Positions 1 through 5,288 of a stretch of 5,288 nucleotides of DNA are shown piece by piece. Origin of the DNA: a virus (taxonomy: Duplodnaviria > Heunggongvirae > Uroviricota > Caudoviricetes); the IMG/VR virus record IMGVR_UViG_2657244940_000001, positions 1 to 5,288 of that record. One strand, given 5' to 3'. The notes below the pieces were generated by a model. The model searched no databases. It saw only the letters and a list, made by a program, of their open reading frames with translations, and was not told where the DNA came from. Position 1 is the stretch's first letter; each line of letters opens with the position of its first letter. Position numbers and translations under genes: made by a program.

Positions 1-31
1 AGCATCGGTCACCACAGCAGCCACTGCTTTG

Positions 32-77
32 GCGGTACCAGTTTGTACACTTGCTTCCGGCTGGTACCGCTCTTTTT
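32..77 (+). terminator. Candidate intrinsic terminator-like hairpin followed by a T-run
   Basis: GCGGTACCAG at 32-41 is the perfect reverse complement of CTGGTACCGC at 61-70 (10-bp stem, 19-nt loop), followed directly by TCTTTTT at 71-77. The loop is larger than in typical rho-independent terminators, so this is tentative. Confidence 0.3.
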
Positions 78-166
78 ACAAAACAGAGAAGAGCATCACC
101 GGACGACGGGCTCATAACCCAATCCACCCGGGCGGCTGCCACCGCAGGTGTTCTTCTCTGTTTTGT
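78..166. repeat. Long-range perfect 15-bp inverted repeat flanking a GC-rich 59-nt spacer (possible leader RNA structure or protein-binding site)
   Basis: ACAAAACAGAGAAGA at 78-92 is the exact reverse complement of TCTTCTCTGTTTTGT at 152-166, checked by hand. It lies upstream of the rdgC-like start at 201. Confidence 0.4.
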
Positions 167-200
167 GGAGAAACTAATATCTTGTGCAGAGGAAAATAGA

Positions 201-1118
201 ATGAAATTACCAAAATTTCGTAACGCAATTGTGTACCGAGCAACATTACCTAGTATACAGGCTATTGAAGGTCATCTTCTCGAACTCCCTTATTCTGAAA
301 TCGGGGAAACAGAACTTTCACGGTCCTCTTTTGTAGAGAATCCTGTCACTGGTGAACTGGTAACTCCGATATCTGGTGGGTACGCAATGGTAATCCGTCA
401 TGATCAGAAAATAATTCCCCGACATGTCGTCATGAAAGAAGCTAATTCTCGAATCCAAACAATCGAAAATATGTCCGGGAATAAATTAAAGCGTGCCGAA
501 CGACTGACCATTATTGATAACGTACGAGTAGATCTATGCAAACAGGCATTTGTTAAGTCTACGCTGATTCTTGCATTGTACAGCACTGATGAGAAATTAT
601 TGGTAATCAACACAACCAATAAAATAATAGCCGGTATGGTATGCGCAATGCTGATTAAGGTTGTCGGTTCAGTGAAAACAGAAACAATCAACATCAGTGA
701 TATCAAGAATGGACTGACTACACGCCTGAATAACTACATCAATGGTGCAGCCAATGCATTTGAAGGATTCACTGTCGGAAATTATATTCAGCTATCACGC
801 TACGCAGATCAAAAGGAAATTATTCGCTACTCAGCTGAGCATGAGTCAATTCAAAGCGAACTGGCCGATAGCCTTAGTAGTAGTTTCACTGCTGATAAAA
901 TGGAGTTATCCGGTTGCGGTGTGACCTTCATTCTTACCGAAAATTTCCATTTTTCGCGCATCAATACTCAATCTCAGACATTTAATGATGAAGATGATAA
1001 AGCATTCCAGTGGCGTCATCAGACTGGCGCTGACCTTTTCCAATTCAGCAAGGTAGTTAATTTGATGTGTGACCTTCTTTCTTACAAAGAAGATAAAAGC
1101 CAAAATCCAACAACTTAA
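201..1118 (+). CDS. rdgC: RdgC-like recombination-associated protein (305 aa)
   Basis: The track ORF 51..1118 is trimmed to ATG 201, which has AGGA at 190-193 about 7 nt upstream. The resulting N-terminus MKLPKFRNAIVYRATLP resembles the N-terminus of E. coli RdgC (MLWFKNLMVYRL, from memory), and 305 aa is close to RdgC length. Not aligned. The frame is also open upstream of 201 to the window edge. Confidence 0.6.
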   Translation: MKLPKFRNAIVYRATLPSIQAIEGHLLELPYSEIGETELSRSSFVENPVTGELVTPISGGYAMVIRHDQKIIPRHVVMKEANSRIQTIENMSGNKLKRAERLTIIDNVRVDLCKQAFVKSTLILALYSTDEKLLVINTTNKIIAGMVCAMLIKVVGSVKTETINISDIKNGLTTRLNNYINGAANAFEGFTVGNYIQLSRYADQKEIIRYSAEHESIQSELADSLSSSFTADKMELSGCGVTFILTENFHFSRINTQSQTFNDEDDKAFQWRHQTGADLFQFSKVVNLMCDLLSYKEDKSQNPTT

Positions 1119-1122
1119 AAAA

Positions 1123-1166
1123 ATTGCAGCAATCATCCCATGTCAAATGGGCTGGATTGCTGCAAT
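1123..1166. promoter_or_regulatory. Pair of inverted near-palindromic 11-mers (ATTGCAGCAAT / ATTGCTGCAAT) in the rdgC-like/HD intergenic region: operator-like or RNA hairpin
   Basis: ATTGCAGCAAT at 1123-1133 and ATTGCTGCAAT at 1156-1166 are exact reverse complements, and each is itself a palindrome apart from the central base. Centres are about 33 bp apart, roughly three helical turns. An inner palindrome CCCAT-GTCAA-ATGGG lies at 1137-1151. A run of A at 1116-1122 precedes the element, so on the minus strand the hairpin would be followed by a T-run. Confidence 0.4.
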
Positions 1167-1208
1167 CAAAATTCAGAGCGGTGCAGCGCATATAACGTGG
1201 AGAACAAA

Positions 1209-1745
1209 ATGTCATTTATTAAAACTTTTTCCGGGAAGCATTTTTATTATGACAAGATAAATAAAGACGACATCGTGATTAACGATATCGCGGTTTCCCT
1301 TTCAAATATCTGCCGCTTTGCCGGTCATCTTTCTCATTTCTACAGCGTCGCCCAACATGCGGTGCTTTGCAGCCAGCTGGTACCGCAGGAATTTGCTTTT
1401 GAAGCATTAATGCATGATGCAACAGAAGCGTATTGCCAGGACATCCCCGCGCCACTGAAACGCCTTCTTCCTGACTATAAACGGATGGAAGAAAAAATAG
1501 ACGCCGTAATCCGTGAGAAATACGGGTTACCTCCTGTTATGAGCACGCCAGTGAAATATGCCGATCTCATTATGCTGGCAACCGAACGTCGCGATCTCGG
1601 GCTTGATGATGGCTCTTTCTGGCCAGTACTGGAAGGTATCCCGGCAACAGAAATGTTCAAAGTTATTCCACTGGCTCCGAGCCATGCCTACGGGATGTTT
1701 ATGGAGCGCTTTAACGAGTTATCGGAGTTACGCACATGCGCATGA
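1209..1745 (+). CDS. HD-domain phosphohydrolase, YfbR/YfdR-type 5'-(deoxy)nucleotidase family (178 aa)
   Basis: The track ORF 1140..1745 is trimmed to ATG 1209, which has GGAG at 1199-1202 6 nt upstream, whereas ATG 1140 has no SD and sits inside the palindromic element. The protein carries an H...HD...D metal-binding signature (AQHAVL ... LMHDATEAYCQDIPAPLKR) that closely resembles the YfbR motif HDASEVLTGDLPTPVKY recalled from memory. 178 aa matches the size of prophage YfdR-type proteins. Confidence 0.75.
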   Translation: MSFIKTFSGKHFYYDKINKDDIVINDIAVSLSNICRFAGHLSHFYSVAQHAVLCSQLVPQEFAFEALMHDATEAYCQDIPAPLKRLLPDYKRMEEKIDAVIREKYGLPPVMSTPVKYADLIMLATERRDLGLDDGSFWPVLEGIPATEMFKVIPLAPSHAYGMFMERFNELSELRTCA

Positions 1746-2347
1746 ATGTTTTCGAAATGGAAGGGTTTCTTCGCGGGAAATGTGTACCACGAGATCTGAA
1801 AGTGAATGAAACAAATGCTGAATATCTGGTGCGTAAATTTGCTGAAGCGGAGGCCAAGATTTTGGCTCTGTCCGAAGACCAACAGAAAGCGATTGAGTCA
1901 ATTAAGCAGGCTGATGCAGCTGTTAAGTTGGCACACGAGAAGTTTTCGGCGCTGGCGGCGGAGAATGCGGGGCTGAAACACGCAATGGCCGTAACTCTTG
2001 AGCATGTGTCGGTCACGGATGCAGGGCAGGCTGGTGTTGCTGCAATGATTATCAACGATGCCCTGCACCACAGCGAAACTCCAGCCACCGATGATTTCCT
2101 GGCTGAAATTCGTGCGGAAGCACGCAACGAGGGGATTAACTATACCGCAAGCCGTCTTGCTGCTGCTTTCAATCACGGATTTATCAATAAGTCTTTACGT
2201 GAAGTTTTCGACGTTACACGCATGATTCTGTCAGCGAAAGAAGAGTTGGCTAATGAACCACACCCGATTGATGGCCTGTCCGGTGAATATGCGGAGAAAT
2301 CCCTAGAAGAATGGGCGGAACAGATTCGCAAAGGAGGCAACCAGTGA
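1736..2347 (+). CDS. Hypothetical phage protein, Ala/Glu-rich, probably partly coiled-coil (203 aa)
   Basis: Complete ORF. ATG 1736 has GGAG at 1724-1727 8 nt upstream, and the alternative ATG 1742 forms an ATGA overlap with the upstream stop at 1743-1745. No family recognised. Confidence 0.6.
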   Translation: MRMNVFEMEGFLRGKCVPRDLKVNETNAEYLVRKFAEAEAKILALSEDQQKAIESIKQADAAVKLAHEKFSALAAENAGLKHAMAVTLEHVSVTDAGQAGVAAMIINDALHHSETPATDDFLAEIRAEARNEGINYTASRLAAAFNHGFINKSLREVFDVTRMILSAKEELANEPHPIDGLSGEYAEKSLEEWAEQIRKGGNQ

Positions 2348-4376: not shown

Positions 4377-4613
4377 ATGGGCAATGTGATTCAACTGGCT
4401 CCCAATGAATGGGTTTGTGAAAGCGTTCTAATCGCAATTACCGGGCTCAAACCAGGCACAATTCTTCGGGCCCGGAAAGAATGCTGGATGGTTGGAAGAG
4501 AGTATATTCACGTATCACCAGACGGTAATCCAAAGCCTTCCAGTGAATGTATGTATAACAGAAAAGCAATAGATGCCTGGGTCGCTTCAATGAAAAACAA
4601 ACAACCTGGGTGA
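4377..4613 (+). CDS. xis: Excisionase-like / AlpA-family HTH DNA-binding protein (78 aa)
   Basis: ATG 4377 has GAGG at 4367-4370 6 nt upstream. It sits immediately upstream of the integrase in the same orientation. The segment IAITGLKPGTILRARKE resembles the AlpA/excisionase HTH motif (ITGLSRSTIYR), and the NEW...W pattern resembles putative prophage excisionases (recall). Confidence 0.55.
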   Translation: MGNVIQLAPNEWVCESVLIAITGLKPGTILRARKECWMVGREYIHVSPDGNPKPSSECMYNRKAIDAWVASMKNKQPG

Positions 4614-4668: not shown

Positions 4669-5288
4669 ATGGATAAAGTCAAATATCCAACAGGCGTCGA
4701 AAACCACGGCGGCACATTACGCATCTGGTTTAATTTTAAAGGTAAACGTGTCAGGGAAAATCTTGGTGTCCCTGACACTGCCAAGAACAGGAAGATCGCC
4801 GGGGAACTGCGGACATCAGTATGTTTTGCCATCCGCACAGGAAGCTTTGATTATGCTGCACAGTTCCCTGACTCCCCCAACCTTCAGGCTTTTGGGGTAA
4901 GTAAAAAAGAAATTACGGTGAAGGAACTTGAAGAAAAGTGGCTGGATCTGAAACGAATGGAAATCTCTGCAAATGCATTCAATCGCTATGAATCCGTTGC
5001 AAGAACGATGGTTTCGAAAATTGGAGGCAGTAGACTGGTGTCATCGGTAACCAAAGAGGAATTGCTGTATATCAGGAAAGATTTGCTAACCGGGTATCAG
5101 AATTCAACGAAAAACAAAGCAGCAGCAAAAGGACGGAGCGTCGTTACTGTAAATTATTACATGACGACAATCGCTGGAATGTTTCAGTTTGCTGCAGATC
5201 ACGGTTACTTAGAAGCAAATCCCTTTCAGGGAATTAAGCCTCTTAAAAGAGCCAGGGCAGAGCCAGATCCGCTAACTCGTGACGAATT
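4669..5288 (+). CDS. int: Tyrosine-type phage integrase, N-terminal ~206 aa (partial, continues past the window end)
   Basis: ATG 4669 has GGAGG at 4659-4663 5 nt upstream. I translated the frame by hand to position 5286 with no stop (MDKVKYPTGVENHGGTLRIWFNFKGKRVRENLGV...). This N-terminal pattern resembles the arm-binding N-termini of enterobacterial cryptic-prophage integrases (recall). It is missing from the ORF track because no stop falls inside the window. Confidence 0.8.
   Translation, partial: MDKVKYPTGVENHGGTLRIWFNFKGKRVRENLGVPDTAKNRKIAGELRTSVCFAIRTGSFDYAAQFPDSPNLQAFGVSKKEITVKELEEKWLDLKRMEISANAFNRYESVARTMVSKIGGSRLVSSVTKEELLYIRKDLLTGYQNSTKNKAAAKGRSVVTVNYYMTTIAGMFQFAADHGYLEANPFQGIKPLKRARAEPDPLTRDE

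What the first reader, a model, noticed from the sequence alone, without database searches (positions are those of the whole stretch)
1123..1166. Operator-like pair of inverted palindromic 11-mers between the rdgC-like and HD genes
Two near-palindromic half-site pairs ATTGC(A/T)GCAAT sit about three helical turns apart, with a third small palindrome between them. That is the architecture of cooperative binding sites for a dimeric regulator. As RNA the same sequence folds into a long imperfect hairpin (12-bp outer stem) that could be an RNase III or stability element, and on the minus strand it is followed by a T-run like a terminator for antisense transcription. It interrupts an otherwise tightly coupled operon.
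Basis: seen in the sequence. Interest (0 to 1): 0.5.

Follow-up and report, generated by a model that had tools for sequence, protein, structure and literature searches.

The report
Conserved RNA hairpin after prophage rdgC
The two "operator-like" 11-mers are the two arms of an RNA stem-loop that related prophages keep on the coding strand just after the first gene of their early-left operon; it most likely controls mRNA processing or stability, does not look like a repressor binding site, and its function is untested.

Summary
The sequence is exactly as described: a perfect 12-bp inverted repeat (1123-1134 / 1155-1166) around a 5-bp inner hairpin, between rdgC and the HD-domain gene yfdR in a lambdoid-type prophage early-left operon.

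The operator interpretation does not hold.
- The prophage's real operators are unrelated CTACTTAAAATAG-type repeats.
- Each 11-mer is self-palindromic only in this lineage.
- The apical loop varies from 3 to 5 nt.

About 100 related loci from Escherichia, Klebsiella-type and other enterobacterial prophages conserve arm-to-arm pairing on the + (mRNA) strand.
- The 5' arm has over 40 variants. They still pair with a nearly invariant G/U-rich 3' strand (AUGGGUUGGGUUGCUGC), largely through G·U wobbles.
- The + strand folds better than its reverse complement in 51 of 55 variants.
- A few true compensatory changes exist.

No variant has a + strand U-tract. The minus-strand T-run occurs in only 14 of 67 variants. 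There is one copy per phage and no Rfam match.

Best reading: an intercistronic sense-strand RNA stem-loop acting in mRNA processing or stability.

It lies beside a second small hairpin (1178-1189). That hairpin belongs to a repeated cassette in front of many early genes: a hairpin with a KUGCAG hexaloop, then a Shine-Dalgarno sequence.

Interest is moderate: a new member of a known kind.

The parts
1116..1118 (+). Stop codon (TAA) of the RdgC-family gene (201-1118). The hairpin begins 4 nt later.
   Evidence: ORF list; RefSeq annotation of an identical prophage; Pfam RdgC, E = 5e-31.
1123..1166 (+). HP1: the whole bipartite stem-loop. It has a 12-bp outer stem, a 2x3-nt internal loop, a 5-bp inner stem and a 5-nt loop.
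   Evidence: MFE -25.3 kcal/mol, z = -5.25. The covariance model finds exactly one copy per related locus.
1123..1134 (+). HP1 5' arm (ATTGCAGCAATC). This is the evolutionarily variable strand.
   Evidence: 40 distinct 5' strands among 49 unique homologues. 63% keep an uninterrupted helix of at least 8 bp, against 0.6% after shuffling.
1137..1151 (+). Inner hairpin CCCAT-GTCAA-ATGGG. The stem is conserved; the loop is free in sequence and length.
   Evidence: 24 different loops of 3-5 nt. Compensatory CCCAC/GUGGG in L282/L283 and U·G intermediates in L041, L238 and L240.
1147..1166 (+). HP1 3' strand (ATGGGCTGGATTGCTGCAAT; ATGGGTTGGGTTGCTGCA in most relatives). It is G/U-rich and nearly invariant.
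   Evidence: 3 distinct 3' strands against 40 distinct 5' strands. All 46 unique class-I loci found by protein similarity carry it, as do 38 of 46 class-II loci.
1167..1177 (+). A-rich single-stranded linker (CAAAATTCAGA). Homology to the K-12 CPS-53 yfdR module starts here (1167-1170).
   Evidence: Match boundaries in 2,900+ E. coli genomes begin at query positions 268-271, which equal window 1167-1170. Sequence comparison.
1178..1189 (+). HP2: a small GC hairpin, gcg-GTGCAG-cgc. It is a weak member of the repeated cassette 'KUGCAG hexaloop hairpin, about 5 nt, GGAG, about 8 nt, start codon'.
   Evidence: Fold. Family census: GTGCAG and TTGCAG are by far the commonest hexaloops before SD+start; 176 cassette hits, 10 inner-stem types, 56 different downstream N-termini.
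1199..1211 (+). Shine-Dalgarno GGAG (1199-1202) and ATG (1209-1211) of the yfdR-like HD-domain 5'-deoxynucleotidase gene.
   Evidence: Sequence; RefSeq annotation; weak Pfam YfbR-like match.
180..193 (+). A second cassette-type hairpin in the window: tctt-GTGCAG-agga. Its 3' stem is the rdgC Shine-Dalgarno sequence.
   Evidence: Covaries as tcct-TTGCAG-agga in Klebsiella-type loci.

Best explanation
Shown: positions 1123-1166 encode a stem-loop that forms in the sense (+) transcript of the prophage early-left operon, 4 nt after the stop codon of the first gene (rdgC). It is not a pair of DNA operators. Relatives conserve the hairpin itself: a sequence-constrained inner stem (CCCAU/AUGGG) and 3' strand (UUGGGUUGCUGC), paired with a freely drifting 5' strand.

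Inferred: it acts after transcription as an intercistronic processing or stability element. It gives the rdgC segment a stable 3' hairpin that blocks 3'-to-5' exonucleases, or it serves as an RNase III-type site. The A-rich linker that follows is the likely endonuclease-accessible spot. The next small hairpin (HP2) caps the 5' end of the distal message just upstream of its ribosome binding site. This would uncouple expression of the first cistron from the tightly coupled genes downstream.
For: - Exact hairpin, far more stable than shuffles.
- Present downstream of every class-I rdgC homologue found by protein similarity (46 of 46 unique sequences, 66-100% aa identity). Present downstream of 38 of 46 class-II rdgC loci, with informative variants in the others.
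- 40 different 5' arms still pair with about 3 different 3' arms. 63% keep a helix of at least 8 bp, against 0.6% in shuffles. 132 of 443 pairs are G·U.
- The + strand folds better than the reverse complement in 51 of 55 variants (mean -19.1 against -15.2 kcal/mol).
- Compensatory changes: CCCAU/AUGGG to CCCAC/GUGGG (L282/283); a T-A pair in the window against C-G or U·G elsewhere; the outer stem rebuilt as GAAAG/CUUUC (L286/287).
- Loop of 3-5 nt with 24 different sequences.
- No + strand U-tract in 0 of 67 variants, so it is not a sense terminator. Both flanks are A-rich.
- It sits in the only large intergenic gap of the operon.
- In CPS-53 and Stx2a phages, where yfdQ replaces rdgC, other stable hairpins occupy the same position.
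- It survives precise loss of rdgC.
Against: - No transcript-end, cleavage or half-life data exist. The function is inferred from anatomy and analogy only.
- The helix (17 bp plus an internal loop) is shorter than typical E. coli RNase III substrates of about 20-22 bp.
- A pure structural barrier would not need a nearly invariant 3' strand and inner stem. That points to an additional sequence-specific reader.
- Formal covariation statistics are weak because the 3' side hardly varies: 70.2% paired against 69.8% in column shuffles, and only 2 pairs change on both sides.
- The sequences are phylogenetically related, and part of the data set (L088-L206) was collected using the motif itself.
Confidence: 0.5

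Rival explanations
1. A sequence-specific regulatory RNA site. The invariant 3' strand (AUGGGUUGGGUUGCUGCA) and inner hairpin are read by a protein or by another RNA, and the variable 5' arm merely masks or presents it. A ribosome terminating at the rdgC stop, 4 nt upstream, would melt the 5' arm and free the 3' strand. Its GCUGCA is complementary to the UGCAGC of the HP2 loop, which could link rdgC translation to expression of the next gene.
For: - The 3' strand and the CCCAU are much more conserved than the loop, the 5' arm or the linker: 0.98-1.0 against 0.33-0.65 mean pairwise identity.
- The stop codon lies within ribosome reach of the 5' arm.
- A 6-7-nt complementarity exists between the 3' arm and the loop and 3' stem of HP2.
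- HP2 belongs to a repeated loop-conserved hairpin family, which suggests a dedicated reader.
Against: - No covariation supports the HP1-HP2 pairing. The flanking position pairs A with G, or C with U, in most lineages.
- HP2 is absent or replaced by unrelated hairpins in several lineages that keep HP1 (L007, L088, L120, L153).
- No candidate binding protein was identified.
- Part of the apparent invariance comes from motif-based sampling. L286/287 show that the 3' strand can change.
Confidence: 0.22
2. An intrinsic terminator for antisense (minus-strand) transcription: the hairpin plus the T7 run that reads TTTTTTTAA on the minus strand.
For: In this window the minus-strand hairpin (-24.6 kcal/mol) is followed directly by U7. 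14 of 67 variants have an A-rich run at that position.
Against: - 53 of 67 variants lack the run.
- Many variants fold poorly on the minus strand, for example -10 against -22 kcal/mol.
- No minus-strand gene or promoter-like site lies downstream of it in the window.
- The A-run overlaps the TAA stop codon and its AT-rich flank.
Confidence: 0.08
3. A double-stranded DNA operator pair bound cooperatively by a dimeric prophage regulator.
For: In this window each 11-mer is a near-perfect palindrome, and the two lie 33 bp apart, about 3 helical turns.
Against: - The prophage's real operator repeats are different (CTACTTAAAATAG).
- The 11-mer palindromy is lineage-specific.
- The spacing of the inner half-sites varies.
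- Conservation follows G·U-tolerant pairing, which has no meaning in duplex DNA.
- There is no promoter nearby.
- There is no further copy elsewhere in the phage.
Confidence: 0.03
4. A cis-acting transcription-elongation (antitermination) RNA of the nut or put type for an N-less lambdoid phage.
For: - These phages have no recognisable N gene.
- A strong intrinsic terminator sits in the pL leader.
- HP1 followed by HP2 is a two-hairpin arrangement after the first gene, as nutR follows cro.
Against: - Only one copy per phage, and none in the early-right operon.
- It lies downstream of the only strong terminator (window 31-78), not upstream of it.
- No strong intrinsic terminators follow it in the window.
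- No convincing boxA.
Confidence: 0.05
5. A recombination 'linker' or mosaic-boundary relic with no function of its own: a shared sequence at which gene modules are exchanged.
For: - Module breakpoints fall at both edges. Homology with CPS-53 yfdR begins at 1167-1170.
- Two rdgC classes and rdgC-less variants share everything from CCCAT rightwards.
- Many different genes follow it.
Against: An 18-nt island is too short for efficient homologous exchange. A relic would not keep pairing through more than 40 different 5' arms or show compensatory changes.
Confidence: 0.07

Closest known systems
Intercistronic mRNA stabiliser or processing hairpins: T7 early-region RNase III sites such as R1.1, lambda sib, and the malE-malF, pap and puf intercistronic stem-loops (from established knowledge)
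   Same: A stable stem-loop with an internal loop, in an untranslated gap of a polycistronic phage early transcript, on the sense strand, without a U-tract and with A-rich single-stranded flanks.
   Different: At 17 bp it is shorter than classical RNase III substrates. Cleavage and stabilisation are untested. The 3' strand and inner stem are constrained in sequence, which those elements do not require.
Lambda nut (boxA/boxB) and HK022 put antitermination RNAs
   Same: Sense-strand RNA hairpins placed after the first gene of an early operon in a lambdoid genome. The neighbouring HP2 has a conserved loop on variable stems, as boxB does.
   Different: There is a single copy and none in the early-right operon. 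It lies downstream of the leader terminator. No N gene and no clear boxA. The HK022 stretch searched (22-29 kb, which was not checked to contain the put sites) gave no match to the HP1 model.
Lambdoid repressor operators (OL/OR)
   Same: In this one lineage, two near-palindromic sites about three helical turns apart.
   Different: Sequence unrelated to the prophage's own operator repeats. No promoter. Palindromy and spacing are not conserved.
Rho-independent terminators, including bidirectional ones
   Same: A stable hairpin with an A-run on one side. On the minus strand it is followed by U7 in this window.
   Different: No U-tract on the transcribed (+) strand in any of 67 variants. The minus-strand tract is present in 14 of 67.
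Loop-conserved intercistronic hairpins of phage T4: C(UUCG)G hairpins and PeSL cassettes (from memory, not tested)
   Same: The neighbouring HP2/KUGCAG family consists of many intergenic hairpins with an identical loop on different stems, at the starts of gene modules.
   Different: Different loop (K-UGCA-G). No associated promoter. The host phages are temperate and enterobacterial. HP1 itself is single-copy.

Membership tests
Repressor operator pair (lambdoid OL/OR type) | Sequence related to the operator repeats at the prophage's own cI/cro region | tested here: not met
   The OR and OL repeats are CTACTTAAAATAG(C/A)A / CTACTTTTAGTAG (L002 2305-2343 and 4677-4712). They have no similarity to ATTGCWGCAAT.
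Repressor operator pair (lambdoid OL/OR type) | Dyad-symmetric half-sites and fixed spacing conserved in homologous phages | tested here: not met
   Homologues have non-palindromic arms (CAGCAGCAAT / GGTTGCTGCAC), and the distance between the inner half-sites varies by 2 nt.
Repressor operator pair (lambdoid OL/OR type) | Overlaps or adjoins a promoter | tested here: not met
   No sigma-70-like site within 250 nt on either strand. This is a simple consensus scan only.
Intrinsic (Rho-independent) terminator | GC-containing hairpin followed by a U-tract on the transcribed strand | tested here: not met
   + strand: 0 of 67 variants have at least 6 T in the 9 nt after the stem. The window reads CAAAATTCA.
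Intrinsic (Rho-independent) terminator | The same features on the minus strand, conserved among relatives | tested here: inconclusive
   The window has U7, but only 14 of 67 variants have an equivalent run, and the minus-strand fold is weaker in 51 of 55.
RNase III processing site | About two helical turns (20 bp or more) of mostly regular dsRNA | tested here: inconclusive
   12 + 5 bp with a 2x3 internal loop in the window. A perfect 17-bp stem in L154. This is shorter than classical substrates.
RNase III processing site | Cleavage by RNase III in vivo or in vitro | not testable with these tools
   Needs RNA-end mapping in rnc+ and rnc- backgrounds, or an in vitro cleavage assay.
nut/put antitermination RNA | Related copies in both early operons, upstream of the terminators they override | tested here: not met
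   The covariance model finds exactly one copy per locus, across 0.76 Mb that includes the early-right operons. The strong leader terminator lies upstream, at window 31-78.
Conserved structured RNA (generic) | Base pairing maintained across diverged homologues, with compensatory or wobble-compatible changes, on one strand | tested here: met
   Caveat: column-shuffle statistics are uninformative because the 3' strand is almost invariant.
Any Rfam 15 family | Covariance-model match | tested here: not met
   No hit at E <= 1 on the window and L002, nor at E <= 10 on L002 4400-6330, which contains the element.

The most novel reading that the evidence does not exclude
HP1's nearly invariant G/U-rich 3' strand, the repeated KUGCAG-hexaloop hairpins placed about 5 nt before the Shine-Dalgarno sequences of many early genes (including 1178-1189 and 180-193 here), and the structured leader at 73-171 are parts of one undescribed RNA-level control system. 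The system would belong to N-less lambdoid prophages of the e14 / CPS-53 / Sawaravirus / Klebsiella type. These sites would be read by an unidentified phage or host RNA-binding factor, or would interact through the self-complementary UGCA loops and the GCUGCA of HP1, to time early-gene expression.
Probability: 0.15. Interest if true: 0.7.

Novelty: new member of a known kind. Interest (0 to 1): 0.38.

Why it matters
If the model is right, this prophage group sets the relative output of its first early-left gene (an RdgC-type recombination modulator) and the distal genes (yfdR and onwards to xis and int) by RNA processing rather than by a DNA-bound regulator.

The hairpin is also a clean natural example of a helix held together by a G/U-rich strand that tolerates dozens of partner strands.

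Practically, the result removes a false operator call. It also points to three unannotated RNA features of very common E. coli and Klebsiella prophages: HP1, the KUGCAG hairpin-SD cassette, and the leader three-way junction found in about half of complete E. coli genomes. All three can be tested directly in K-12 (e14) or in STEC lysogens.

Tried and rejected
1. Rfam: no family matches the element, its neighbour or the leader.

2. Second copies: a covariance model built from 49 variants finds one copy per phage. It finds none in the early-right operon, K-12 CPS-53, Stx2a_WGPS2 or the HK022 stretch searched.

3. Long-range pairing: the HP1 3' strand has a 12-bp complementarity to the conserved leader loop UAACCCAAUCCA. 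I rejected this because the window lineage has two uncompensated mismatches, and leaders of the L004 type lack the motif while keeping HP1.

4. HP1/HP2 alternative pairing: the complementarity exists, but the flanking position does not covary.

5. Stop-codon readthrough stimulated by the hairpin: in this window the rdgC frame stays open through the gap and is in frame with yfdR. That holds in only 19 of 82 unique variants, about 5 lineages. The hairpin falls in frame 0, 1 or 2 in 49, 18 and 15 variants respectively. So it is not a conserved feature.

6. A parS- or centromere-like DNA site (ParA and ParB genes occur in some relatives): rejected for the same reasons as the operator.

7. Literature searches (GUGCAG stem-loop; lambdoid intergenic stem-loops; rdgC prophage sRNA; yfdQ/yfdR; ymfH/e14) found nothing describing these elements.

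8. blastn of the rdgC 3' end plus hairpin against 50,697 deposited phage genomes: no match. It occurs in 25 of 5,426 complete E. coli genomes.

9. Formal pair-count test on a model-fitted alignment: weak and uninformative, because two pairing registers coexist and the 3' strand is invariant.

Full report
**What is in the window.** The window is the early-left arm of a lambdoid-type prophage, all on the + strand.
- An RdgC-family gene lies at 201-1118 (Pfam RdgC, E = 5e-31).
- A 90-nt gap follows.
- Next comes a yfdR-like HD-domain 5'-deoxynucleotidase gene (1209-1745).
- Then come tightly overlapping small genes (Ead/Ea22, DUF551 and others), an excisionase (4377-4613) and the start of an integrase (4669 onwards).

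A near-identical prophage in E. coli STEC17-183 shows the wider context: cro-like and cI-like genes, ParA, about 900 nt without genes, then rdgC, yfdR and on to xis and int.

**The observation.** It is accurate.
- ATTGCAGCAAT (1123-1133) and ATTGCTGCAAT (1156-1166) are reverse complements. With one more base they form a perfect 12-bp inverted repeat.
- CCCAT/ATGGG (1137-1141 / 1147-1151) lies between them.
- The motif occurs more often than chance: 3 hits against 0.28 expected.
- The RNA fold is far better than shuffles: -25.3 kcal/mol, z = -5.25.
- The minus-strand fold is followed by U7.

**Collecting relatives.** In 2,900+ E. coli genomes, homology with the CPS-53 (KpLE1) yfdR module starts at window 1167-1170, exactly at the 3' edge of the hairpin. 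K-12 carries yfdQ plus different hairpins on the left side. The hairpin therefore travels with the upstream module.

The rdgC 3' end plus hairpin occurs in only 25 of 5,426 complete E. coli genomes and in no deposited phage genome at blastn sensitivity.

Three searches gave about 280 loci from Escherichia, Kluyvera, Raoultella, Enterobacter and Klebsiella-type prophages:
- protein-based searches of IMG/VR and GTDB genomes with this RdgC (class I);
- the same with a second, more canonical RdgC class (class II);
- a motif scan.

**What is conserved.** All 46 unique sequences downstream of class-I rdgC genes contain CCCAT-N3-5-(A/G)TGGG-YTGG-RTTGCTG. These were found by protein similarity alone, at 66-100% aa identity. 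So do 38 of 46 unique class-II sequences.

The 5' arm is highly variable. There are 40 distinct versions among 49 unique hairpins, for example GCAGCAAUU, AGUGACCU, AGCGACUU, AAGCAUCU, GCAGCCCU and GCAGUAAU. The 3' strand has 3 versions.

Despite that variation, 63% of variants keep an uninterrupted outer helix of at least 8 bp, against 0.6% when the 5' arm is shuffled. 132 of 443 pairs are G·U. One variant (L154) is a perfect 17-bp stem.

Because G·U becomes A·C on the other strand, the direction can be read. The + strand RNA folds better than its reverse complement in 51 of 55 variants, with means of -19.1 and -15.2 kcal/mol. In many cases the difference is about -22 against -11.

True double changes exist but are few:
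- CCCAU/AUGGG becomes CCCAC/GUGGG in L282/L283, with U·G intermediates in L041 and L238;
- the window's T-A pair is C-G in L007 and U·G in most others;
- L286/L287 have rebuilt the outer stem as GAAAG/CUUUC.

The apical loop is free: 24 sequences of 3-5 nt.

**Caveats on the comparative evidence.**
- The sequences are related to one another.
- Loci L088-L206 were ascertained with the motif itself.
- A formal pair-count test on a model-fitted alignment is uninformative: 70.2% paired against 69.8% in column shuffles. The 3' side scarcely varies, and two pairing registers coexist.

The operator reading fails on four counts.
- The prophage's real operator repeats are recognisable as sequences shared, in inverted orientation, between the cI/cro intergenic region and a site about 600 nt upstream of rdgC. 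They are CTACTTAAAATAG-like and unrelated to the 11-mers.
- The self-palindromy of each 11-mer is confined to this lineage.
- The spacing between the inner half-sites varies.
- Wobble-tolerant conservation has no meaning for duplex DNA.

No promoter-like site is nearby.

A sense terminator is excluded, since 0 of 67 variants have a U-tract. The antisense terminator is a feature of a minority, 14 of 67 including this window.

The element is single-copy. A covariance model finds one per phage. It finds none in the early-right operon, CPS-53, Stx2a_WGPS2 or the HK022 stretch searched. This argues against a nut- or put-like pair. The element also lies downstream of the only strong terminator, not upstream of it. 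That terminator is at window 31-78: a 13-bp stem followed by UCUUUUU.

No Rfam family matches.

**Mechanism.**

Shown: a sense-strand RNA stem-loop conserved at the first intercistronic gap of the early-left operon. It starts 4-15 nt after the stop codon of the first gene and has A-rich single-stranded flanks. It survives replacement of rdgC by another class and even precise loss of rdgC.

Inferred (confidence about 0.5): it works as an intercistronic processing or stability element. It would be a 3' exonuclease barrier or a double-strand-specific RNase site for the proximal segment. Cleavage would fall in the A-rich linker. HP2 would then form the 5' hairpin of the distal message.

The main reservation is the near-invariance of the inner stem and 3' strand. 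That suggests an additional sequence-specific reader (rival, about 0.22).

**The neighbour, HP2.** The small hairpin at 1178-1189 (gcg-GTGCAG-cgc) sits 9 nt before the yfdR GGAG. It is one instance of a repeated cassette in these phages:
- a GC-rich stem of 4-8 bp;
- the hexaloop (G/U)UGCAG;
- then a median of 5 nt, GGAG, a median of 8 nt, and a start codon.

In an unbiased census of stem-5 hexaloop hairpins that precede an SD and start codon in 119 loci, GTGCAG (99) and TTGCAG (53) are far ahead of any other loop.

There are 176 cassette hits with 10 different innermost stems, in front of 56 different N-termini. They always lie on the coding strand of the local operon: + downstream of HP1, and - in the early-right operon. 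Some raw hits inside an HNH gene are coding artefacts and were excluded by the SD/start filter.

A second member in this window is 180-193 (tctt-GTGCAG-agga), whose 3' stem is the rdgC Shine-Dalgarno sequence.

I found no description of this motif in the literature searched. Its function is unknown.

**Verdict.**
- The headline interpretation (operators) is wrong.
- The secondary suggestion (RNA hairpin, stability or RNase element) is the best-supported one.
- The antisense-terminator idea is lineage-specific at best.

The element is an unannotated, conserved RNA stem-loop. It is a new member of a familiar class and of moderate interest. The surrounding RNA features noticed in passing may be of greater interest than the hairpin itself.

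Noticed in passing
window 29-177 (terminator 31-78; three-way junction 73-171): A strong intrinsic terminator is followed at once by a roughly 100-nt three-way-junction RNA (MFE -51.5 kcal/mol, z = -5.85). It has a long P1 stem, a highly conserved loop GACGGGCUCAUAACCCAAUCC and a variable third hairpin. RNAalifold on 15 diverse loci gives 41 pairs, 14 of them with compensatory double changes. There is no Rfam hit. blastn finds it in 2,811 of 5,426 complete E. coli genomes. That includes K-12 prophage e14, where it lies under the CDS annotated ymfH, and Stx2a phages (Sawaravirus WGPS2). It is probably an undescribed, very common prophage leader RNA.
   Followed up: partly
window 180-193 and 1178-1189; L209 5186-5201 (-) and 12870-12885 (+); many IMG/VR loci: A repeated cassette: a hairpin with a constant (G/U)UGCAG hexaloop on covarying stems, about 5 nt upstream of GGAG and a start codon. 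It lies in front of many unrelated early genes (the second gene of the left operon, xis, the gene after rusA) and always on the coding strand. The core UGCA of the loop is self-complementary. I could not find it described.
   Followed up: partly
L002 2305-2343 and 4677-4712 (outside the window, same prophage): The operator-like repeats CTACTTAAAATAG(C/A)A occur twice, 23 nt apart, in the cI/cro intergenic region. They occur again, inverted, about 600 nt upstream of rdgC, which marks the probable OL/pL. The first 430 nt or so of the pL transcript would then be non-coding and end at the terminator at window 31-78. No N-like ORF is evident. A conserved hairpin with a GAAGAG(A/U) loop (L002, about 4905-4935) covaries among distant relatives.
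   Followed up: partly
window 1116-1211: The rdgC reading frame stays open after its TAA through the whole gap and is in frame with the yfdR ATG. Readthrough would therefore fuse the two proteins. This holds in only 19 of 82 unique variants, so it is probably incidental.
   Followed up: yes
window 1167-1170; L001 2413-2539: A mosaic breakpoint. Homology with the K-12 CPS-53 yfdR module begins exactly at the 3' edge of the hairpin. After yfdQ, CPS-53 carries two different hairpins instead (AAAUGCCCC-UGCG-GGGGCAUUU and UCACC-GGAU-GGUGA).
   Followed up: yes
L098, L116, L134, L145, L157, L178 and others (IMG/VR): Variants in which rdgC is absent. The end of the leader (GUGGAGAACUAACG), plus a CCGCCA-UUGCAG-UGGCGG hairpin, is joined through about 35 nt to the inner hairpin and 3' strand of HP1. 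That spacer is homologous to the 3' UTR of class-II rdgC loci.
   Followed up: partly
window 2036-2046: A third near-copy of the 11-mer (GTTGCTGCAAT) lies inside the ORF 1736-2347, in a context resembling the right arm (CTGGTGTTGCTGCAATG against CTGGATTGCTGCAATC). It is probably chance.
   Followed up: no
L002 851-938 and 963-1039 (- strand): Rfam C4 antisense RNA (80.1 bits) and the isrK Hfq-binding RNA (61.8 bits) lie in the early-right arm of the same prophage, near an ash-family gene. This indicates a P1/P7-type c4-ant immunity module in addition to the cI/cro switch.
   Followed up: no
window 27-50: From memory, the 5' half of the leader terminator (UUUGGCGGUACCAGUUUGUAC) resembles the DicF sRNA terminator region (UUUGGCGGUAUCAGUUUUAC). 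The Rfam DicF model did not match, so this remains an untested lead.
   Followed up: partly
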